A stretch of 63,663 bases of DNA, the filler included, from Deltaproteobacteria bacterium (GTDB lineage Bacteria > JAUYMQ01), in NCBI GenBank assembly GCA_030698575.1. It is 9 parts of 9 records of this genome, joined end to end, with 100 filler letters (N's around TTAATTAATTAA, not from the genome) between each part and the next. Parts side by side here need not be neighbours in the genome. Positions count along the whole stretch, not along the records: positions 33,030 to 39,769 come from JAUYMQ010000196.1; 8 more parts are not named here. One strand, written 5' to 3'. The notes below the pieces were generated by a model that was given only the letters and a program-made list of their open reading frames with translations, searched no databases and was not told the DNA's origin. The translations under genes were made by a program, and so were the position numbers. This document shows, piece by piece, positions 2,351-38,997 of this stretch (the first letter of the stretch is position 1; every line of letters starts with the position of its first letter).

Positions 2351-3487
2351 TCAGAAACGATGCGAGAAACCGGGCGGCGGCTTCTCGCCGCTCGCCCCGT
2401 TTCCCGCGACGTCTCGCAGGCGGTCGAGCGCCCAGCGCGCGTGCCGGCTCACCACCGCGTCGGGATCTTCAGCAAGGCGGGCCAGGGCGCGCTCGAAGCG
2501 CCGTTCGCCGGAGTTTCCCATAGCGATCGCGATATTGCGAAGCCAGCCTGCGCGCTCCGCCCGGCGCATGGCGGTTCCCTGTATGAAGCCTTCGTAGTCA
2601 GACTGAATGCGCTCGAGCAGCGCCCCCAGTTCCGGCGCCTCGGCGCCCGGCCGGGGCTCGAAATCCTCGATGCCGCCTGCGGGCGCGTCGCTGTTCCAGG
2701 GGCAGACGTCCTGGCAAATGTCGCAACCGTAGACGTGCGTTCCCATCCCGGCCCGAAGCGCGGGGTCGATTTCGCCGTGATGTTCGATGGTCAGATAGGC
2801 GATGCAACGCCGCGCGTCGAGCTGGTAGGGCGCCACGATGGCACCGGTCGGGCAGGCATCGATGCAGCGCCGGCAGGTCCCGCAGTGATCCGGTTCCCGC
2901 CGATCGGGAACCAGCGGGGCATCGGTGACAATCTCGCCGAGAAAGAGGAAGCTTCCGGCCCTCCGATCGATGACGCAGGTGTTCTTGCCGATCCAGCCGA
3001 CGCCCGCGTGCGCCGCGGCGACGTGCTCCAGCACGGGGCCCGTATCGACCCGCGTGGCGCATAGCGTGCCCGGGCGCAGCCGCTGAAGCGCGCGGGCGAG
3101 CCTCCTGACCCGCTTCTCCATGACGCGGTGGTAGTCGCGTCCCCAGGCGTAGCGCGAAATCCAGCCGCGTGACCGTTCACGCGGCGCGGTCGAAAGAGGG
3201 CGGGCGGTCTGGTAAGACATGGCCACGCAGAGAACGGATCGTGCCCCGGGCAGGAGCCGCCGTACGTCCATCCTTGTCTCCCGGCTGCGGCCCATCCAGT
3301 CCATCGTGCCGGCCTGTCCTCGCGCAAGCCAGTCGAGTAGCGATGCTGACTCGGGCCAGACCTCCGCGCGCGCGATGCCTGCGCGGGTGAAGCCGAGGGC
3401 GCGCGCTTTTTCCTTGATGAGCGCGGTGAGCGCGGCGTCCTCCCGCGCAGACGCCTTGCCGGGGTTCGATGCGTGTGTCGCCTCCAT
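2351..3487 (-). CDS. queG: Epoxyqueuosine reductase
   Basis: Motifs ISRYAWGRDYH, VDTGPVLE, GWIGKN, CGTCRRCIDACPTGA and YGCDICQDVCPWN. Confidence 0.95.
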   Translation of the reverse strand: MEATHASNPGKASAREDAALTALIKEKARALGFTRAGIARAEVWPESASLLDWLARGQAGTMDWMGRSRETRMDVRRLLPGARSVLCVAMSYQTARPLSTAPRERSRGWISRYAWGRDYHRVMEKRVRRLARALQRLRPGTLCATRVDTGPVLEHVAAAHAGVGWIGKNTCVIDRRAGSFLFLGEIVTDAPLVPDRREPDHCGTCRRCIDACPTGAIVAPYQLDARRCIAYLTIEHHGEIDPALRAGMGTHVYGCDICQDVCPWNSDAPAGGIEDFEPRPGAEAPELGALLERIQSDYEGFIQGTAMRRAERAGWLRNIAIAMGNSGERRFERALARLAEDPDAVVSRHARWALDRLRDVAGNGASGEKPPPGFSHRF

Positions 3488-3668: not shown

Positions 3669-5294
3669 ATGTCCCCGAGCAGCGAGTCCTCCAGCGCCGG
3701 TCCCGCCGGCCTCCTCCCGGAAGCGGCCGACGTGGTCGTCGTCGGGGCCGGTGTCGCCGGGCTCTTCGCGGCCCATTTCCTGGCCCGCGCGGGGCTGCGG
3801 CCGCTCGTTCTCGAGCAGAGCTACCACGCCGGCGGCTGTCTGAACGGCTTCACCCGCAAGGGATTCACATTCGACGCCGGCGACCAGTCTTTCGAGGAAC
3901 TGGGCATCGTCTTCCCCCTGCTCGCCGATCTCGATCTCCTCGACCGCTTCCAGTTTCGCCGATCGAACTACCGACTCGTCGCGCCCGGGATGGACGCGGT
4001 GATCGATTCCATCGACACGCTGGAGCGGGCCTTTCTCGGCGCCTTTCCGCGGGACCCCACGGGCGTCCGGTCGCTCTTCCGGGCGCTCCGTGAGGCCGAA
4101 GCGCTCCTGATCCCGCTTCTTGGCGCGTCCGGGCCGCTCTACCGCAGCGGTGCGAGGCGCGGCGCTGCGCTGGCCCGGGCGGGGCTGCACGTAGCCCGCC
4201 ACGGCGGGCGCCTGCGCGAAATGATGAACACGGGCGCGCGCGAGCTGGCCTCCGCGCACATCGAGGATCGGGAGCTGCGGAGCTTCGTCTCGCGCATCGG
4301 CTACAAGAACATGTCCTGGGCTGTGCTCGCCGGTTTCCTTCATTGCTGGGTGCATGACTACTGGTATCCGCAGGGGGGGCTCCAGGCTTTCTGCGACGGC
4401 CTGGTCGACGCGCTCCGGGAGCGGGGCGGCGAGGTTTGCTTCAAGACGCCGGTTGCTCGCGTCCTCGTCGCCGACGGGCGTGTCGAGGGCGTGGAGACGG
4501 CGCGGGGCGAGCGCATCGCCACGAGGCGGGTTGTCGCCTGCGGCGACATGAAGCGCCTTTACGGTGATCTGCTTCCGCCCGAGGCGCTGCCTGCGGCCGC
4601 GCGGGAGGAGGTCGCCCGGGGGGATCTTTCCGAGGCGCTCACGAGCGTTTACCTGGGCGTCGACGCCTCACCGGAACAGCTCTCCCCCATCCTCAAGACG
4701 CAGCACGTCTTCTACTTTCCGGAGTTGCGCATTCACGACCCAGAGGAGACGGCCGACGCCGGCCTTCACCGGGGCGCGTGGCTCGAAGTGAGCTGCCCGA
4801 CGCTTGCCGATCCATCTCTCGCGCCGCCGGGCAAGAGCGTCATCGTCCTGCAGACCATGGCCCCGGCCGCCTGGCTCGGCCGCTGGGGGCGCGAGGGGCG
4901 GGCCACGAAGGAGGTTTACCGCGCGATGAAGGACCGGGTGGCTGAGGAGATGATCGCCACGGCCGAGGGGCTTGTCCCCGATCTTTCCGGAAAGATTCTT
5001 TTCCGTGACGTGGGCACGCCGCTTTCGGCCGAGCGCTTCACCTTCAACGCCGCCGGCGCCACCGGCGGCTGGACCTTCGACCCCAATCGCAGCCTTCTGC
5101 GCGATCGCTACACACTGATCACCACGCCGATCGAGGGGCTGCAGACCGCCGGCCACTACGCGCTCTGGCCCGGCGGGGTGCCCTCCGCGGCGCTGTCCGC
5201 CCGCATCGCCGCGCTGCTCGCGTCGCGCCCGGCCCTGGCTGCCGTGGCGCGCCTGGCTGAGCGCGGAGCGGCGCGCATCGCGAAGCGGCGATGA
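3669..5294 (+). CDS. Phytoene desaturase-like FAD-dependent oxidoreductase (CrtI/RetSat family)
   Basis: VVVGAGVAGL Rossmann motif, GGCLNGFTRKGFTFDAG, YPQGG, GTPLSAERFT and PGGGVP. Confidence 0.85.
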   Translation: MSPSSESSSAGPAGLLPEAADVVVVGAGVAGLFAAHFLARAGLRPLVLEQSYHAGGCLNGFTRKGFTFDAGDQSFEELGIVFPLLADLDLLDRFQFRRSNYRLVAPGMDAVIDSIDTLERAFLGAFPRDPTGVRSLFRALREAEALLIPLLGASGPLYRSGARRGAALARAGLHVARHGGRLREMMNTGARELASAHIEDRELRSFVSRIGYKNMSWAVLAGFLHCWVHDYWYPQGGLQAFCDGLVDALRERGGEVCFKTPVARVLVADGRVEGVETARGERIATRRVVACGDMKRLYGDLLPPEALPAAAREEVARGDLSEALTSVYLGVDASPEQLSPILKTQHVFYFPELRIHDPEETADAGLHRGAWLEVSCPTLADPSLAPPGKSVIVLQTMAPAAWLGRWGREGRATKEVYRAMKDRVAEEMIATAEGLVPDLSGKILFRDVGTPLSAERFTFNAAGATGGWTFDPNRSLLRDRYTLITTPIEGLQTAGHYALWPGGVPSAALSARIAALLASRPALAAVARLAERGAARIAKRR

Positions 5295-33844: not shown

Positions 33845-33921
33845 GGGGAGGGGGACGTGACGCGCACACACTTGAACGCCATCCATGAACTGCGGCGTCA
33901 ACGGCTGCGGGAGGCGTCGTG

Positions 33922-34440
33922 ATGAGCGGCCCGTGGTCCGAGGATCTGACGGCCGAAGTCGCGCACCTGTGGGCAGACGGACACAGCGCGGGCGAGATCG
34001 AGACCATGCTGCCCGCCGGCCACGGCCGGACACGGAATGCCATCATCGGCAAGATGTCCCGGCTCCAGCGGGCCGGCGGCCATCCCAAGCGGGAACAAGG
34101 ACCGCCGCGCGCGACACGACCGAGGCTCACCAGTGCCGGCCGTAGCGCGGCGAGCCGGGCCGGCAACGGCACGTTCGGCAGGCCGCCGGTACTCAAGGCC
34201 GTTCCCGTGCCGCGTGCCCGCACCGACATTCCCGAACCCGTGTCGCTTGGCCTCACGCTGATGCAGTTGACGAAGTTCACCTGCCATTGGCCGGGCGGCG
34301 GGCCGTCCGAACCGCCGGGCCTGTTCTGCGGCCACGCAACGTTCCGTGGAGGGCCGTACTGCGAAGGGCACACGGCCAGAGCATTTCATCCGCCGAAGCA
34401 ACGTGACCGCGCCGGCTTCTATCAGAGGGCAGGACGGTGA
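33922..34440 (+). CDS. gcrA: GcrA family cell-cycle regulator (phage-encoded)
   Basis: W.E...LWADGHSAGEI...TRNAIIGK and LMQLTKFTCHWP..FCGH..YCEGH. Confidence 0.88.
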   Translation: MSGPWSEDLTAEVAHLWADGHSAGEIETMLPAGHGRTRNAIIGKMSRLQRAGGHPKREQGPPRATRPRLTSAGRSAASRAGNGTFGRPPVLKAVPVPRARTDIPEPVSLGLTLMQLTKFTCHWPGGGPSEPPGLFCGHATFRGGPYCEGHTARAFHPPKQRDRAGFYQRAGR

Positions 34441-34972: not shown

Positions 34973-35303
34973 CGTTGTTCGCATGACCCGCGACGCGCCC
35001 GACCAGGATTCGTTCGAGGCGTTCTGGCGCGTCTATCCGCGCAAGGTCGGCAAGCCGCTGGCCCGTGCGAAATGGGACGCGATTACCAACGGCGGGCTGG
35101 CGACGCGCACAATGGACAAGGATTCGGGCACCTACGTTCCGATCACGCTAGTTGCAGAGCCGTCCGAAATTCTGGCCGGTGCCATCCGGTACGAGCAACG
35201 CAACAGGAAAAAGGGCACGGGCGAATTCGGCTACGTCGATGACGGCCGCTATTTACTGCACCCGGCGACGTTTTTGAATCAGGGGCGCTTTTATGACGAG
35301 TAG
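34965..35303 (+). CDS. Phage replication-initiator C-terminal-like domain protein (stand-alone)
   Basis: FEAFWRVYPRKVGK..A.AKW and HPATFLNQGRFYDE. Confidence 0.7.
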   Translation: MADVVRMTRDAPDQDSFEAFWRVYPRKVGKPLARAKWDAITNGGLATRTMDKDSGTYVPITLVAEPSEILAGAIRYEQRNRKKGTGEFGYVDDGRYLLHPATFLNQGRFYDE

Positions 35304-35700
35304 CGCGCCCGCCCTGCGGCCTCCAACGCCCCCGATGGGTACAGAGACGCTGGAAAGAGGAACCCCCGCCAAGCTGGCCGCTGGGCAGGGGTTCGACACT
35401 AGTTCTAGGTGTGGGGCACCCTCGAAGGCCCTAAATCTAGACCAAACGAGTCGTGTATGCAAGCCCGCCGTGGCGAGCGAGAACGCCAGTAAAAATCGCT
35501 CGGGACCGTGGCCCATAGGACGAGCGGCCTGGGTGGGGTCGAAAGGCCCTCACCAAGGATAGGCGGACGGTTCGCCCAACTGACCTTCGGCGACCGGCAG
35601 GAATGAAAGGGACTGAGTACGCGGGCAGGGCGTTCCTGCCTCCCCTTGGTCGGGGGCTGGGGGTTCACCCAGGCGGAAAGGGCGAAGCTATGGGAGAGAG
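35304..35700 (+). ncRNA. Candidate large structured non-coding RNA
   Basis: Many nested stems with GAAA and cUUCGg loops, plus long-range pairs 35512-35518/35688-35694 and 35571-35577/35680-35686. Confidence 0.55.
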
Positions 35701-35703
35701 AGC

Positions 35704-35898
35704 ATGGCAAAGCCGAAAGCAGTGAAACCGAAATTCAGGTACGTTTCGCAAGTCGTCACGGAAACTGCCGAGCCGGTGACGAAGAAAGCCCTGCGGGAAA
35801 CCATCGAAGCGGCGATGATCGGATTTTCGATCCGGTCGCGTGACGACAATCGCTGGGTCGAGCAGAAAACCCGCGTTCGTTCCGTGGACATCGACTGA
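35704..35898 (+). CDS. Hypothetical phage protein
   Basis: GGAG RBS; its stop overlaps the next ATG. Confidence 0.55.
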   Translation: MAKPKAVKPKFRYVSQVVTETAEPVTKKALRETIEAAMIGFSIRSRDDNRWVEQKTRVRSVDID

Positions 35899-36263
35899 TG
35901 GCCGCAGCGATGACAGACCTGACGGAGCGGGTGGAACAGGCGGCCGAAGCCCTACATGCCAGCCGGCAGCAGGCACTTGGGAATAGGGCTGGCGTAGGAA
36001 AATTGAAGGAGTGCTTTCACGCTCTTTCCAAGAGTCAGAAATACCAATGGAGAGTTGCTGCTGAAGCTGCAATCCGCACCGCCTTCCCCGAACTGTTCTC
36101 CGACCCGCCGACGCACGTGCTATGGCCCGTCATGTCGGTAATTACATCTGTCGAGAGTGACCCGAACGATCCAACACAAATCCACATCTTTACCGACTCG
36201 CCCGCCCACCTCTCACAGACGGAGGGGCACCCCGTCCCCGACGAGTCCCATCCCCCTGAATGA
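35898..36263 (+). CDS. Hypothetical phage protein
   Basis: TGATG coupling with the upstream ORF. Confidence 0.5.
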   Translation: MAAAMTDLTERVEQAAEALHASRQQALGNRAGVGKLKECFHALSKSQKYQWRVAAEAAIRTAFPELFSDPPTHVLWPVMSVITSVESDPNDPTQIHIFTDSPAHLSQTEGHPVPDESHPPE

Positions 36264-36276
36264 CCCGGCGCAGGAA

Positions 36277-36486
36277 TTACGGATTAATCGCGATGTGAAA
36301 ATATCTCCGCACGGCAGCGTTGGCGAGCAGGGCCTCGACGAGCACGATGACGGGGCCGGGAATATCCCGGTCGCCAGCCTCCCAGCGCCGGACGGTACGG
36401 CCGTCAGCGACGTTGACGAGGTGGGCGAAGCCGGCGGTGGAGAGGCCCAGACGATGCCGAGCGGCCCTGAGGTCAGTCGGCGTCAT
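36277..36486 (-). CDS. XRE-family HTH protein
   Basis: LRAARHRLGLSTAGFAHLVNVADGRTVRRWEAGDRDIP. Confidence 0.85.
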   Translation of the reverse strand: MTPTDLRAARHRLGLSTAGFAHLVNVADGRTVRRWEAGDRDIPGPVIVLVEALLANAAVRRYFHIAINP

Positions 36487-36679
36487 ACCACCAGCCCATT
36501 CCGAGCTCCTGGGCGATCTCGCGGCCCGGCGCATCGGCGAGGGCGAGATCATGGACGCGGCGCAGTGTGGCCTCATCGGCACCGCGGACGGCGGTGCGGT
36601 AGTCATCCGGGAGGGCGGTGTAGCGGTTGGCCAGCTCGGCGAGGACGGCGGCGGTCAGGGTTGCTGGGTGGTTGGTCAT
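36473..36679 (-). CDS. Small hypothetical protein coupled to the XRE gene
   Basis: GGAG RBS, 68 aa, overlaps the XRE start. Confidence 0.6.
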   Translation of the reverse strand: MTNHPATLTAAVLAELANRYTALPDDYRTAVRGADEATLRRVHDLALADAPGREIAQELGMGWWYDAD

Positions 36680-36725
36680 GTCGGTCTCCATTTCTGGCGG
36701 GCACCATTGCCCTATCGACAATCTC

Positions 36726-36754
36726 AATATAGGGCCAATGGCCCTACAGGTCAA
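36726..36754 (-). promoter_or_regulatory. sigma70 promoter with a perfect palindromic operator in the spacer
   Basis: The minus strand reads TTGACC-17nt-TATATT. Palindrome TAGGGCCA-A-TGGCCCTA at 36730-36746. Confidence 0.75.
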
Positions 36755-36775
36755 ATCACGAAATGTAACGGCTGA

Positions 36776-37345
36776 ATGACCCGAGGCAGGAAGGCCCGCA
36801 AGCCGATGAAGGCAACCGCAAGCATCGAGCACCAGGTGTCCGAGCGGGAGCGCGGTGGACGCGGCACGGCCACTGTGGAGCGCCTCACGCAAGCCGGGGA
36901 GGGCGGGTACGAGGTTGACCCGACAGGCCGCCAGCGCATCGTTGCGGCTCCGCTGGATCGCCTCTGGAAAGTCGGCCACATCACGCAGCGCGAATTCGAC
37001 GCCGGGGACAAGTACCGTGGCCTGCACCACGTCGCTGACCTTGATCCGGCTGCCCCCAGTGTGGACTGGGGCAGGGTCGGCGGCAGCTTTGGCCCGCGTC
37101 CGCCAAGCATGTTCACCGCCCAGCATATTGCAAGTGCCCGTGAACAAGTCCGCTCGATCGACAAGGCCATTCCCGATCGCAGCGTCGTATCGGTTTTGCT
37201 CTATCTCGGCCTCATAAAAGAGCGCGCATTGCATGAAATCGGGGCCAGCATCTTCGGGGCGGACAACGAGCGTGATGCCCGCAATCTCGGCCGCGCTGGG
37301 TTCCGTACGGCATTGGCTTCGCTCGCCGACATCATGAGGGCTTGA
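36776..37345 (+). CDS. Putative late-gene regulator (DUF6456/antiterminator-like)
   Basis: PLDRLWKVGHITQREFDAGDKYR and a C-terminal HTH-like segment. Last gene before the packaging genes. Confidence 0.55.
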   Translation: MTRGRKARKPMKATASIEHQVSERERGGRGTATVERLTQAGEGGYEVDPTGRQRIVAAPLDRLWKVGHITQREFDAGDKYRGLHHVADLDPAAPSVDWGRVGGSFGPRPPSMFTAQHIASAREQVRSIDKAIPDRSVVSVLLYLGLIKERALHEIGASIFGADNERDARNLGRAGFRTALASLADIMRA

Positions 37346-37445: not shown

Positions 37446-37736
37446 ATGGCTGGACGCCCTCCCAAGGAGAAGTCCTTCGCCAATATGCTCAAGATCGCCA
37501 TCAACGAGGCGAACGAGCAAGGCGGGACCAAGCTCCGCGACGTGGCCGACGCGCTGGTGACAAAGGCGCTCACCGGCGATGTGCCGGCCATCAAGGAAGT
37601 TGCCGATCGTCTCGACGGCAAGGTGCCGCAAGGCGTGATCGGTGGCGAGGAAGACGATGCCCCGCTGCGTGTGCAGCTCATAGAACTGGTTGCCGGTGTC
37701 CGCAGTCCAGGTTCACCTCCCGCCGAAACTGGTTGA
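37446..37736 (+). CDS. Terminase small subunit-like protein
   Basis: GRPPK..ALTGDVPAIKEVADRLDGKVPQ. Overlaps TerL. Confidence 0.65.
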   Translation: MAGRPPKEKSFANMLKIAINEANEQGGTKLRDVADALVTKALTGDVPAIKEVADRLDGKVPQGVIGGEEDDAPLRVQLIELVAGVRSPGSPPAETG

Positions 37737-38997
37737 TGTCTTTCTAGGGCCTGCCCTTTACCGGGTGGCCTATGGCGGGCGTGGTTCGGCCAAGACACGC
37801 TCATTTGCAACGATGTCTGCCGTGATGGGCTATCGGCTGTCCCATGCCGGTGAGCGTGGCGTCATCGTATGTGGCCGCGAGTTCATGAACTCGCTGGCGG
37901 ATAGTTCATTTGCCGAAGTCAAACAGGCGATTGAGGACGAACCGTGGCTTGCCGCCGCGTACGATGTTGGCGCGAATTTCATCCGCACCAAGGACGGCCG
38001 CATTGAGTTTGCCTTTGTCGGGCTGCGCCACAACCTCGCTTCGATCAAGTCAAAGGCCAGAATTTGGGTTTTGTGGGTAGACGAAGCTGAGCGGGTGAGC
38101 GCGACGGCGTGGCAGATCGCCGACAACACGGTGCGCGAGGAAGGCGCTGAAACGTGGGCAACATGGAACCCGGAACGCAAGGGTTCGGCCACGGACCTTC
38201 GCTTTCGCCAGAACCCGCCGCCAGAGTCCAAGATCGTCGAGATGAACTGGCGGGACAATCCGTGGTTCCCATCGACGCTTGAAAAGAAGCGTCTAGCTGA
38301 TCTCGAAAAACGTCCCGACCAATATGCCCATATTTGGGAAGGCGATTACGTGACGGTGGTTGAAGGCGCTTACTTCGCCGCCTCGCTGACCGAAGCCAAG
38401 GCCAAGGGCCGGATCGGCAACGTCTCGCCTGATCCTCTGATGACCTATCGCGCGTTCTGGGACATCGGCGGGACCGGGGCCAAGGCGGACGCCTGTGCGA
38501 TCTGGATAGCCCAGTTCATCGGTCGCGAAATCCGGGCGCTGAACTACTACGAGGCGGTCGGCCAGCCGCTCGCCACGCACGTCGCTTGGCTCAGGGACAA
38601 TGGTTACGGCAAGGCGCTGTGTGTCCTGCCGCACGACGGCGAAACCAACGACAAGGTGTTTGACGTTTCCTACGACAGCGCACTGCAATCCGCGCAGTTC
38701 GAAACCGAAATCATTCCCAATCAGGGCAAGGGCGCGGCCAAGATGCGGATTGAAGCTGCCCGCAGACTGTTCCCGTCGATCTGGTTCAACGCCGGCACGA
38801 CGGAAGCCGGACGGGAAGCGTTGGGCTGGTATCACGAGCGCAAAGATGAAGAGCGCGGCGTCGGGCTTGGCCCCGAACACGACTGGTCGAGTCACGGCGC
38901 AGACGCCTTCGGCCTGATGTGTGTTGCCTATGAAGCGCCGCTGGAGCGGAAGAAGACGCAGCCGGTTCGACATGGACCGGGAGCATGGTTGGGCTGA
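37696..38997 (+). CDS. Terminase large subunit, PBSX family
   Basis: Walker A YGGRGSAKT, Walker B WVDEAE, TWNP, WDIG and HDWSSHGADAF. Confidence 0.95.
   Translation: MSAVQVHLPPKLVDVFLGPALYRVAYGGRGSAKTRSFATMSAVMGYRLSHAGERGVIVCGREFMNSLADSSFAEVKQAIEDEPWLAAAYDVGANFIRTKDGRIEFAFVGLRHNLASIKSKARIWVLWVDEAERVSATAWQIADNTVREEGAETWATWNPERKGSATDLRFRQNPPPESKIVEMNWRDNPWFPSTLEKKRLADLEKRPDQYAHIWEGDYVTVVEGAYFAASLTEAKAKGRIGNVSPDPLMTYRAFWDIGGTGAKADACAIWIAQFIGREIRALNYYEAVGQPLATHVAWLRDNGYGKALCVLPHDGETNDKVFDVSYDSALQSAQFETEIIPNQGKGAAKMRIEAARRLFPSIWFNAGTTEAGREALGWYHERKDEERGVGLGPEHDWSSHGADAFGLMCVAYEAPLERKKTQPVRHGPGAWLG

What the first reader, a model, noticed from the sequence alone, without database searches (positions are those of the whole stretch)
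35304..35700. Candidate large multi-junction ncRNA in a phage, directly after a lone replication-initiator C-terminal domain gene
Seen: a ~400-nt gap in an otherwise gene-dense, overlapping phage operon, packed with complementary segments. Local stems: GAACCCC/GGGGTTC (35360-66/35388-94); CGAGCGA/TCGCTCG (35474-80/35496-502) with a competing TGGCG/CGCCA; a GAAA-capped hairpin (35528-58); a cUUCGg loop (35585-90); CGACC+GGCAGGAATG/CGTTCCTGCC+GGTCG (35591-605/35631-52); CTGGG/CCCAG. Two perfect nested long-range 7-bp helices, CCCATAG/CTATGGG (35512-18/35688-94) and TTCGCCC/GGGCGAA (35571-77/35680-86), close a multibranch domain. G-U pairs and GNRA/UNCG loops favour an RNA on the + strand. Inference: an unannotated large phage RNA (ribozyme, RNP scaffold or replication primer RNA), possibly partnered with the upstream 112-aa YPRK/HPATFLN protein, which lacks the usual origin-binding N-terminal domain.
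Basis: partly seen in the sequence, partly recalled or inferred. Interest (0 to 1): 0.8.

Follow-up and report, generated by a model that had tools for sequence, protein, structure and literature searches.

The report
New large structured phage RNA family
The gap holds a real, strongly folded RNA that belongs to a previously uncatalogued family found in dozens of environmental phages, sitting between their replication and DNA-packaging genes; what it does is still unknown.

Summary
The ~400-nt gap (35304-35703) is non-coding and carries a genuine structured RNA on the + strand. Single-sequence folding energy is not significant (z -0.47). Comparative evidence is strong.

- **Family size:** 34 distinct sequences share the core: the window, 28 new IMG/VR contigs and 5 loci already fetched. 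A covariance model adds L174 and a Dyadobacter chromosome.
- **Covariation:** the 3' three-way junction is 92.6% paired against 68.6% in shuffles, with 0 of 500 shuffles reaching the observed score. A 68-pair core model that includes a pseudoknot and a kissing loop gives 45 pairs with compensatory changes.
- **Local conservation:** close relatives keep 35353-35706 at about 90% identity while the flanks are unalignable.
- **Known families:** nothing in Rfam 15 matches.
some hold (GAACCCC/GGGGTTC, TGGCG/CGCCA, CTGGG/CCCAG, CGACC/GGTCG, CCCATAG/CTATGGG). Others do not (GGCAGGAATG/CGTTCCTGCC, CGAGCGA/TCGCTCG, probably TTCGCCC/GGGCGAA).
- **Link to the YPRK gene:** loose, 12 of 34 loci.
- **Position:** always co-oriented with its neighbours and 1.2-4.8 kb upstream of the large terminase where that was checked. 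It often ends right at the next gene's RBS.

Function is unproven. My best guess is a cis-acting leader or intercistronic regulator.

The parts
34983..35303 (+). Upstream gene: 106-aa stand-alone YPRK/HPATFLNQGR protein. It matches the middle part of phage replication-initiation protein profiles.
   Evidence: PHROG phrog_270 E 4.2e-14, matching profile positions 170-212 of 383. No Pfam hit. 34 homologues of 104-138 aa and only one longer form, 316 aa.
35304..35703 (+). Non-coding gap that holds the structured RNA: a subtype-specific 5' domain plus the family core.
   Evidence: Flat G+C by codon phase. nhmmer hits L173 and L179. Relatives keep 35353-35706 at about 90% identity while the flanks are unlike.
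35324..35343 (+). 20-nt block CAACGCCCCCGATGGGTACA, identical in L173.
   Evidence: An 18-nt core also occurs in L311, which may be chance.
35360..35394 (+). 5'-domain hairpin GAACCCC...GGGGTTC.
   Evidence: The same hairpin is present in L173 with its inner pairs changed on both sides.
35404..35443 (+). Helix TCTAG/CTAGA enclosing a variable hairpin, plus the conserved CTAAATCTAGACC (35431-43).
   Evidence: The block is identical in L173. L179 and L024 have a similar AU-rich ...TAGACCAAA element. Fold shown.
35471..35488 (+). Hairpin TGGCG/CGCCA, followed by the A-rich linker GTAAAAA (35489-95).
   Evidence: Relative X3 has 35474 C>G together with 35485 G>C. Other members have the same layout of hairpin plus A-rich linker.
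35496..35527 (+). P2 hairpin: TCGCTCG/CGAGCGG with the 10-nt loop GTGGCCCATA (35508-17).
   Evidence: Helix 1: all 9 pairs show changes on both sides across 20 sequences. L288 is nearly identical here.
35511..35514 (+). GCCC in the P2 loop: 5' strand of the pseudoknot with GGGC 35680-83.
   Evidence: The flanking pair covaries: A-U 17, G-C 7, U-A 2, of 32 sequences examined. Helix 2.
35532..35554 (+). GAAA-capped hairpin, specific to the window's subtype.
   Evidence: MFE fold. In relatives X4/X5 only the loop changes. Absent from the typical members.
35562..35576 (+). Hairpin GGCGG/TCGCC.
   Evidence: Read from the sequence. It has no comparative support of its own.
35591..35596 (+). CGACCG: partner of the hairpin-B loop (long-range loop contact).
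   Evidence: TGGTCG:CGACCG gives 5 Watson-Crick pairs plus 1 G-U. A relative's 35593 A>G keeps a G-U pair. In typical members the partner sits in the P5 loop (helix 7).
35605..35622 (+). Conserved GAAAGGGACTGAGTA plus CGC: 5' side of the purine-rich internal loop and of the junction-closing helix.
   Evidence: The closing pair col 18/120 is U-A in 23 and C-G in 11, with none broken. The loop-E/sarcin-ricin resemblance is my recollection and was not tested.
35624..35640 (+). Hairpin A (GGCAGG/CCTGCC).
   Evidence: Helix 3: all 4 pairs change on both sides, 93% paired.
35642..35656 (+). Hairpin B (CCCC/GGGG) with the conserved loop TTGGTCG.
   Evidence: Helix 4. Relatives have 35645 C>T together with 35653 G>A.
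35658..35671 (+). Hairpin C (TGGG/CCCA).
   Evidence: Helix 5: all 6 pairs change on both sides.
35673..35683 (+). GCG plus GAAAGGGC: 3' side of the junction and of the pseudoknot.
35688..35694 (+). CTATGGG tail, complementary to CCCATAG 35512-18. It overlaps the purine-rich RBS (35692-702).
   Evidence: Conserved as CUAUGG in most members. Helix 3 is 91.7% paired but almost invariant.
35704..35898 (+). Downstream 64-aa gene. The block shared with relatives ends at its ATG.
   Evidence: alignment ends at 35706. No Pfam or PHROG hit. The first downstream genes are unrelated across the family.
33919..34440 (+). Context: GcrA-like regulator gene.
   Evidence: Pfam GcrA E 2.1e-23. GcrA/DnaA_C-HTH genes lie near the RNA in 16 of 34 loci, 15 of them upstream.
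37690..38997 (+). Context: large terminase subunit, 2.0 kb downstream.
   Evidence: PHROG phrog_3717 E 3.3e-56.

Best explanation
**Shown.** The gap encodes one member of a previously uncatalogued family of large structured RNAs, read from the + strand. The core is about 230 nt in this window and about 310-450 nt in typical members. The family is carried by tailed phages from environmental metagenomes.

The conserved core has these elements:
- a hairpin (P2) whose loop forms a pseudoknot with the 3' tail;
- an A-rich linker;
- a purine-rich internal loop (GAAAGG.ACUGAGUA opposite GAAARGG);
- a three-way junction of hairpins A, B and C;
- a loop-loop contact from the hairpin-B loop to an upstream loop.

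The window's copy is a trimmed variant with its own 5' domain, which it shares with L173.

**Inferred, and my commitment.** The RNA is transcribed as part of the rightward operon, with no promoter or terminator of its own. It acts in cis as a folded leader or intercistronic element that sets expression of the genes after it. The fold brings the 3' tail (CUAUGG), which abuts or overlaps the next gene's RBS or start codon, onto the P2 loop. Formation or opening of that pseudoknot, perhaps on binding of a ligand, protein or RNA polymerase, would gate translation or read-through towards the packaging genes.

That the RNA family is real I put at about 0.95. The confidence figure below is for the cis-regulatory mechanism.
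For: **The family is real.**
- nhmmer links the window to L173 (E 2.4e-8) and L179 (E 0.009). L179 links to L024, L176, L177 and L178 (E 1e-18 to 3e-29).
- A two-motif pattern finds 32 IMG/VR stretches, 28 of them new contigs.
- 34 distinct sequences align.
- Covariation is strong, with 0 of 500 shuffles reaching the observed score and slid controls 3-8 times lower.
- The closing pair is U-A in 23 and C-G in 11 of 34. The search pattern did not force this.
- Model R1 finds two sequences that were not used to build it: L174 (61 bits, with a further compensatory UGC/GCA to CUC/GAG change) and L126 (35 bits).

**Evidence for cis action.**
- All clustered neighbours lie on the RNA's strand: 13 of 13 YPRK genes, 10 of 10 DnaA_C/GcrA genes, and all large terminases found.
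- No U-tract terminator follows the 3' end in the 34 aligned tails.
- In the window the RNA fills the space from the stop codon at 35303 to the RBS and ATG at 35704.
- In relatives X4-X6 the shared block ends exactly after that ATG, and a different protein follows.
- By my heuristic ORF picks, the next start codon lies within about 30 nt of the GAAARGG motif in 13 of 31 loci.
- The large terminase lies 1.2-4.8 kb downstream on the same strand in the window and in 7 of the 10 large ORFs tested.
- For context, a preprint reports a long leader and Q-like antitermination ahead of the capsid genes of an alphaproteobacterial phage-derived element (10.1101/2024.11.20.624540, sections 7 and 10 read).
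Against: - No expression data exist, so RNA ends and promoter are unknown.
- The next start codon is 50-109 nt away in 12 of 31 loci, so RBS occlusion cannot be universal.
- The first downstream genes are unrelated: only L292 and L307 match each other. There is therefore no gene-function logic of the riboswitch kind.
- The consensus scan finds no + strand terminator between 35700 and 38000, so there is nothing obvious to antiterminate.
- In the window a minus-strand HTH gene (36277-36606) and a 170-nt gap separate the RNA's operon from the terminase genes.
- The two candidate tail pairings (GCCC:GGGC and CCCATAG:CTATGGG) share the same C residues. Only the first one covaries.
- The size and tertiary contacts would suit a ribozyme or a trans-acting RNA equally well.
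Confidence: 0.38

Rival explanations
1. A trans-acting, self-contained 'ornate' RNA of the GOLLD/ROOL kind. It would be cut out of the operon transcript and would act as an RNA-only or RNA-protein particle during infection. Its position next to an RBS would be mere genome compaction.
For: - It is a compact multi-helix fold with a pseudoknot and a kissing loop.
- It is conserved more strongly than the flanking genes.
- The neighbours on both sides vary.
- Peripheral helices vary while the core stays fixed: the window lacks P3-P5 of the typical members.
- There is one copy per phage.
Against: - It has no terminator or recognisable promoter of its own.
- The block shared with relatives includes the RBS and ATG of the next gene.
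- No Rfam match to GOLLD, ROOL or any other family.
- It is much smaller than those RNAs (sizes recalled, not from a call).
Confidence: 0.27
2. A ribozyme, self-cleaving or otherwise processing, that cuts the polycistronic transcript and defines the 5' end of the downstream message.
For: - Invariant junction nucleotides are held in place by a pseudoknot and a loop-loop contact.
- The 3' end sits immediately before an ORF in many loci.
- The neighbouring genes are heterogeneous, as is usual for ribozymes (the last point is general knowledge, recalled).
Against: - No match to any ribozyme family in Rfam 15.
- No cleavage site can be inferred.
- Nothing here tests catalysis.
Confidence: 0.13
3. 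A replication-related element: either an origin or primer RNA of the ColE1 RNA II kind, or a folded single-strand DNA initiation site. It would be used together with the YPRK replication-type protein.
For: - It lies at the end of the replication/recombination module, which holds RusA, methyltransferase, DnaA_C-HTH/GcrA and YPRK genes.
- A YPRK gene is adjacent or near in 12 of 34 loci.
- Eight loci fetched only through YPRK homology also hold the core: L024, L126, L174 and L176-L179 hold it, and L173 holds only the window's 5' domain, not the core.
- G-T pairs are tolerated in single-stranded DNA.
Against: - 22 of 34 loci have no YPRK gene within about 4 kb.
- L001 has the gene but no element.
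- No iterons or direct repeats were noticed in the alignments; the repeat finder was not run.
- GNRA-type loops, an S-turn-like internal loop and a kissing loop point to folded RNA (inference).
- Some phages carry the element right next to the terminase genes.
Confidence: 0.1
4. The region is a small protein gene (ORF 35293-35562, or a minus-strand ORF), or a non-functional spacer whose stems arise by chance in G+C-rich DNA.
For: - 89- to 91-aa ORFs start at the upstream stop codon in the window, L173 and L179.
- The MFE z-score is only -0.47.
Against: - G+C is flat by codon phase.
- No family hit.
- The window and L173 differ by frame-breaking indels between the two conserved nucleotide blocks.
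- Substitutions fall on codon positions 1/2/3 as 4/8/9 (hand count).
- Covariation is massive.
Confidence: 0.02

Closest known systems
GOLLD and ROOL large ornate RNAs of phages and prophages (names and properties recalled; preprint 10.1101/2024.12.08.627333 seen only as a search listing and the start of its abstract)
   Same: Large, multi-helix, phage-borne RNAs with strong covariation, no known protein partner and unknown function.
   Different: No sequence or structure match (Rfam cmscan). This RNA is smaller (about 230-450 nt). It holds a fixed place between the replication/regulatory genes and the packaging genes, is always co-oriented with its neighbours, and often ends at an RBS.
Translational riboswitches and structured 5' leaders closed by a pseudoknot near the RBS
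   Same: A tertiary-folded sensor-like domain whose 3' closing strand lies at or next to the ribosome-binding site. The core is conserved and the peripheral helices vary.
   Different: Downstream genes are unrelated. The distance to the start codon ranges from 7 to 109 nt. No ligand can be suggested. The element sits inside an operon rather than behind a recognisable promoter.
Cis-acting processive antitermination RNAs (HK022 put, EAR; recalled) and long late-gene leaders with Q-like antitermination (BaGTA preprint 10.1101/2024.11.20.624540, sections 7 and 10 read)
   Same: An RNA or leader placed ahead of phage late or packaging genes on the same strand.
   Different: This RNA is several times larger and far more elaborate. 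No terminator was predicted downstream in the window. No adjacent promoter or -10-like pause element was established.
ColE1 RNA II-type primer RNAs and single-strand initiation sites (recalled)
   Same: Folded nucleic acid next to replication genes.
   Different: The link to the replication-type gene is only partial (12 of 34 loci). No antisense partner or origin features were seen.
Unnamed candidates in 'Identification of over ten thousand candidate structured RNAs in viruses and phages' (PMC10690425; passages read, supplements closed)
   Same: That study mined the same IMG/VR collection for covarying motifs, including motifs within 25 nt upstream of genes.
   Different: I could not check whether this family, or a piece of it, is among its 8,495 IMG/VR candidates. 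The passages I read describe no such RNA.

Membership tests
Any Rfam 15 family (including GOLLD, ROOL, HEARO, group I/II introns, tmRNA, RNase P, known riboswitches and ribozymes) | Covariance-model score at or above the family's gathering threshold. | tested here: not met
   0 matches over the whole window. In 35100-35900 there are only DUF3800-XI at 15.3 bits (gathering 37.8) and M23 at 15.2 bits (gathering 41.2). Across 7 related loci the only hit is a tRNA in L174. L177 3280-3840 gives weak hits far below threshold. ARAGORN finds no tRNA or tmRNA.
The new RNA family defined here (model R1, alignments A4 and A5) | Three-way junction closed by YGC/GCR, with the flanking ACUGAGUA and GAAARGG strands and hairpins A, B and C. 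| tested here: met
   The window has all of these elements at 35603-35685. Its 65.4-bit R1 score is by construction, because it is a training sequence. Independent links: nhmmer E 0.009 and 0.037 to L179, and compensatory changes in close relatives.
The new RNA family defined here | P2 hairpin loop (GUGRCCCAUA) forming a pseudoknot with the 3' tail GGGN. | tested here: met
   Window: GCCC 35511-14 with GGGC 35680-83. Across the family the flanking pair is A-U 17, G-C 7, U-A 2, unpaired 6, of 32.
The new RNA family defined here | Hairpin-B loop pairs with an upstream loop (P5 loop in typical members). | tested here: inconclusive
   In 20 typical members the pair 130/306 is G-C 13 and A-U 7 with none broken. 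The window lacks P4/P5 and offers CGACCG 35591-96 instead, with one supporting A>G change in a relative. I chose the partner as the best match within a zone, so there is a selection bias.
Riboswitch | The same class of gene or pathway lies downstream across members. | tested here: not met
   The first downstream ORFs of 31 loci are unrelated except for one pair, L292 and L307.
Riboswitch | An expression platform (terminator, or RBS-sequestering helix) is coupled to the aptamer. | tested here: inconclusive
   The tail CUAUGG abuts or overlaps the RBS in the window and in about 13 of 31 loci, but is 50-109 nt from the start codon in 12. No terminator follows.
Processive antitermination RNA (put/EAR type) | Lies in the transcribed leader just downstream of a promoter, with terminators downstream that it overrides. 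| tested here: inconclusive
   The consensus scan found no + strand promoter, and only one weak + strand terminator-like site at 35269-87, which lies upstream of the RNA. The scan does not cover alphaproteobacterial promoter types.
Replication origin / primer RNA | Obligate linkage to the initiator gene. | tested here: not met
   A YPRK gene is near in 12 of 34 loci. L001 has the gene without the element.
Phage replication-initiation protein family phrog_270 (upstream gene) | Full-length match to the profile, including the N-terminal part. | tested here: not met
   Only profile positions 170-212 of 383 are matched in the best stretch. The relatives are stand-alone proteins of 104-138 aa, with one 316-aa form.

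The most novel reading that the evidence does not exclude
This is a new class of large phage ribozyme or ligand/RNAP-sensing RNA switch. Its pseudoknot and kissing-loop core times the hand-over from replication to genome packaging, in a phage lineage that otherwise relies on GcrA-type regulators. It would be an RNA-based late-gene checkpoint, spread as a portable 'RNA + RBS + ATG' module.
Probability: 0.2. Interest if true: 0.85.

Novelty: new variant of a known kind. Interest (0 to 1): 0.66.

Why it matters
Large RNAs with intricate, strongly covarying folds are rare. When studied, they have usually turned out to be ribozymes, riboswitches or RNA machines.

This family has at least 36 members in phages from groundwater, soil and other environments. 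It sits at a fixed place between the replication/regulatory genes and the packaging genes. It matches no family in Rfam 15, and blastn found no copy among 50,697 deposited phage records.

If it gates late gene expression or processes the transcript, it would be a new RNA-level control point in the phage life cycle. It would also be a compact, portable regulatory module. If it is a trans-acting particle, it joins GOLLD and ROOL as an orphan RNA that deserves structural work.

Tried and rejected
- **Folding energy of the single sequence:** not significant. It cannot stand as support.
- **Rfam at permissive E-values:** only noise.
- **blastn against the 50,697 phage records:** run with the window gap, a typical full member and its 3' domain. 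There was no real match; one 24-nt hit at E 4.
- **The search for related loci with the 64-aa downstream protein:** nothing.
- **The search for related loci with the GcrA gene:** 9 distant loci, none with the RNA.
- **The search for related loci with P0003:** no close relative.
- **The genome search with R1 on three genomes:** no match even in G001, which holds L126, so that route is uninformative.
- **Pattern scan of 401 genomes of the class of G003:** not found in those searched.
- **Sequencing runs:** no RNA holder is listed, so nothing can be said about expression.
- **Promoter and terminator scan:** nothing usable on the + strand.
- **AT-rich element as a -10 box:** I considered reading CTAAATC / TATA..ACC this way. 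I set it aside because in typical members it forms a hairpin with compensatory and G-U changes (read by eye).
- **Longest complement of the 3' tail:** no consistent partner other than the P2 loop.
- **R1 with filters off on L173, L311 and L312:** no core was found, so L173 shares only the window's 5' domain.
- **L163 (21 bits):** left as doubtful.
- **Group I intron, split gene, retron, guide RNA:** rejected. There is no Rfam hit, the flanking genes are unrelated, and no reverse transcriptase or nuclease gene was noticed among those annotated.
- **Earlier findings of this scan:** nothing relevant.
- **Papers:** five full-text searches and one term look-up in preprint 10.64898/2026.10.21.760802 turned up no description of this RNA.
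Full report
**Setting.** The window (64.6% G+C) is a tailed-phage genome piece.
- It has a GcrA-like gene at 33919-34440 (Pfam E 2.1e-23).
- A small gene at 34983-35303 matches the middle of phage replication-initiation profiles (phrog_270, E 4.2e-14).
- A large terminase lies at 37690-38997.
- Between the stop codon at 35303 and the ATG at 35704 lies a 400-nt stretch. Its G+C is flat over the three codon phases, unlike its neighbours.

**Single-sequence tests.**
- Rfam 15 gives nothing at gathering thresholds over the whole window. At E up to 10 in the region it gives only two sub-threshold hits.
- ARAGORN finds no tRNA or tmRNA.
- The + strand MFE (-174.8 kcal/mol) lies inside the shuffled distribution: mean -172.0, z -0.47, 28 of 100 shuffles as good. 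The - strand gives z -1.76.
In 65% G+C sequence the test has little power, so I turned to relatives.

**Finding relatives.**
- The upstream protein has 34 relatives of similar length (alignment A1). With it I fetched about 250 loci from viral, metagenome and genome collections.
- nhmmer with the 400-nt gap against 251 loci hit two. Both hits lie downstream of the homologous gene: L173 3330-3482 (E 2.4e-8, matching the 5' part) and L179 3713-3809 (E 0.009, matching the 3' part).
- The L179 gap in turn hit L024, L176, L177 and L178 (E 3e-29 to 1e-18) and the window (E 0.037).
- A pattern made of two conserved blocks, CTGAGTAYGCG N45-72 GGCRGAAARGG, found 32 stretches in IMG/VR. Four of them are contigs I already held.
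- The result is 34 distinct sequences including the window.
- The closest YPRK homologue in IMG/VR, L001 (53% identity), has no gap and no similarity.

**Structure and covariation, 3' domain.** The 34 sequences (alignment A4) fold into a three-way junction.
- RNAalifold predicts 19 pairs, 15 with compensatory changes.
- 92.6% of cells are paired against 68.6% in column shuffles.
- The covariation score is 0.597 against 0.188, and 0 of 500 shuffles reach it. Slid controls give 0.04-0.14.
- The junction-closing pair is U-A in 23 and C-G in 11 sequences, with none broken. My pattern allowed any Y/R combination, so this is not an artefact of the search.
- The invariance of the two pattern blocks themselves is by construction.

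**Structure and covariation, full core.** For 20 typical members (alignment A5) RNAalifold gives 44 pairs, 28 compensatory. I then wrote a 68-pair model by hand. It comprises P2, the P3 hairpin, P5, P6, P7, the junction, hairpins A/B/C, a pseudoknot and a kissing loop.
- It is 87.2% paired against 72.9% in shuffles.
- 45 pairs change on both sides.
- The covariation score is 0.385 against 0.146, and 0 of 500 shuffles reach it.
- P7 is poorly aligned (60% paired).
- The shuffle control ignores phylogeny, but the slid controls keep it.

**Strand.** G-U pairs are near-invariant on the + strand: col 12/126 in 34 of 34, and 274/297 in 19 of 20. This fixes the strand.

**Two tertiary pairings.**
1. 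*Pseudoknot.* The base 5' of the CCC run in the P2 loop pairs with the base after the GGG run in the 3' tail. It is A-U in 17, G-C in 7 and U-A in 2 of 32 sequences. The 6 unpaired cases are mostly sequences where I could not place the loop with confidence.
2. *Kissing loop.* The hairpin-B loop (UAGCCA, UGGUCA and variants) pairs with the P5 loop (UGGCUA, UGACCA and variants). Pair 130/306 is G-C in 13 and A-U in 7 of 20, with none broken. In my zone search over 34 sequences the same position is T-A in 14, C-G in 19 and broken in 1. In that search I took the best match in a 19-nt zone. Neighbouring control zones reached a score of 5 or more in 8 and 2 sequences, against 18 in the real zone.

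The CCAUAG/CUAUGG complementarity is conserved but almost invariant. It overlaps the pseudoknot's C residues, so the two may be alternative states. That is inference.

**The window's copy.** It is a trimmed variant. CCCATAG to CTATG spans 176 nt, against about 255-267 nt in the others. It lacks the P3 hairpin, P4/P5 and the P6 loop.

It keeps these elements (coordinates checked):
- P2: 35496-35527
- the pseudoknot: GCCC 35511-14 with GGGC 35680-83
- the purine-rich internal loop
- hairpin A: 35624-40
- hairpin B: 35642-56
- hairpin C: 35658-71
- the CTATGGG tail

Its 5' domain (about 35314-35470) is shared only with L173. Hairpin 35360-94 keeps its shape there with its inner pairs exchanged.

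**Close relatives.** Contigs in four metagenome runs were laid on 35000-36000.
- Three contigs match at 35005-35095 and at 35353-35706, with 37 substitutions and 8 gaps in 354 nt. The 258 nt in between, and everything after 35706, are unlike the window.
- The RNA is therefore better conserved than the genes around it, and the shared block ends right after the next gene's ATG.
- Changes that keep pairs: 35645 C>T with 35653 G>A (hairpin B); 35474 C>G with 35485 G>C (hairpin TGGCG/CGCCA); 35593 A>G (A-U to G-U in the loop contact); 35405 C>T (C-G to U-G).
- Substitutions inside ORF 35293-35562 fall on codon positions 1/2/3 as 4/8/9 by my count, which is not a coding pattern.

**Extent of the family.** Model R1, built from A4, was run over the window and 278 loci that were not in its training set.
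- Among sequences it was not built from, it found L174 (61 bits). There the otherwise invariant UGC/GCA closing helix is CUC/GAG.
- It found L126 (35 bits), which lies in a Dyadobacter chromosome. The family therefore reaches beyond hosts of GcrA-encoding phages.
- L163 (21 bits) is doubtful.
- L173 is not matched even with filters off.
- blastn found no copy in 50,697 deposited phage records.
- None of 401 sampled genomes of one class holds the pattern.

**Context.**
- All clustered neighbours are on the RNA's strand.
- A YPRK-type gene is present in 12 of 34 loci: 10 upstream, of which 5 directly adjacent including the window, and 2 immediately downstream (L298 and L307).
- GcrA-like or DnaA_C-HTH genes lie upstream in 15 of 34 loci and downstream in 1.
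- RusA and DNA methyltransferase genes also recur.
- Of 10 large downstream ORFs tested, 7 are large terminases, at +1.2 to +4.8 kb. The window's is at +2.0 kb.
- The first downstream ORFs are unrelated to one another.
- In the window a minus-strand HTH-like gene (36277-36606) and a 170-nt gap lie between the RNA's operon and the terminase genes. The RNA is therefore not the immediate leader of the terminase operon here.

**What it is and how it may work.**
- *Shown:* a new, strongly structured RNA family on the + strand.
- *Not shown:* expression, RNA ends and function. No RNA run holds the stretch, which says nothing either way.
- I favour a cis-acting leader or intercistronic element (about 0.38). 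It has no terminator or promoter of its own. It fills the space from stop codon to RBS. The module that moves between phages includes the RBS and ATG. The covarying pseudoknot ties the tail next to the RBS into the core.
- Against this: the start codon is 50-109 nt away in 12 of 31 loci, the downstream genes share no function, and no terminator is predicted downstream.
- Rivals are a trans-acting ornate RNA (0.27), a processing ribozyme (0.13), a replication-related RNA or ssDNA element (0.10), and coding or chance (0.02).

**Novelty.**
- Nothing in Rfam 15 matches.
- Five full-text searches found no description of this RNA.
- A 2023 catalogue of 10,006 candidate structured RNAs in viruses, 8,495 of them from IMG/VR (PMC10690425, passages read), may contain it unnamed.
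- The loop-E/S-turn reading of the AGUA/GAA internal loop, and the comparisons with GOLLD, ROOL, put, EAR and ColE1 RNA II, rest on my recollection and not on a call.

Noticed in passing
window 35324-35343; L173 3340-3359; L311 5234-5251: The 20-nt block CAACGCCCCCGATGGGTACA is identical in the window and L173. An 18-nt core recurs in an unrelated gut-phage contig (L311), again just after a stop codon, with no other similarity. That match may be chance: I estimate about 1-2 random 18-mer hits in the collection.
   Followed up: partly
window 36277-36606 (- strand) and 36606-36776: A minus-strand HTH-like gene (strong G+C phase signal) faces a 170-nt gap that holds the only sigma-70-like promoter match in the region (36754-36726, - strand). 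This is probably a divergent regulatory region ahead of the terminase genes.
   Followed up: no
L178 2279-2935 and homologues in 10 loci: Proteins of about 218 aa combine a DnaA C-terminal HTH domain (Pfam Bac_DnaA_C, E 1.5e-12) with a weak GcrA-like segment. They lie about 1.7 kb upstream of the RNA.
   Followed up: partly
L126 4636-4727: A diverged copy of the RNA core (35 bits) lies in a Dyadobacter sp. chromosome, about 1.4 kb downstream of a YPRK homologue. It is presumably in a prophage, but I did not examine the context.
   Followed up: partly
L292 and L307: In these two contigs a YPRK-like gene appears to be the first ORF after the RNA rather than lying before it (heuristic ORF picks; only L307 passed the YPRK profile search).
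   Followed up: no
5' domain of typical members, e.g. L177 about 3435-3448 and L178 about 4428-4440: An AU-rich palindromic hairpin (GGUAAUAUAUUACC, GUAAUACUAUUAC, GUUAUAACGUAAC) is conserved in place, with compensatory and G-U changes. The window's CTAAATCTAGACC seems to be its counterpart.
   Followed up: partly
L299, L300, L305, L308: Four IMG/VR contigs end within or a few hundred nt from the RNA. This may reflect assembly breaks at a highly conserved element, or closeness to genome termini.
   Followed up: no
L174 5633-5705: A tRNA gene (Rfam tRNA, 54 bits) lies about 1 kb downstream of the RNA in L174.
   Followed up: no
window 35293-35562; L173 3273-3542; L179 3285-3560: ORFs of 89, 89 and 91 aa start at the upstream gene's stop codon in three loci. 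They look like by-products of G+C-rich conserved RNA rather than genes.
   Followed up: yes
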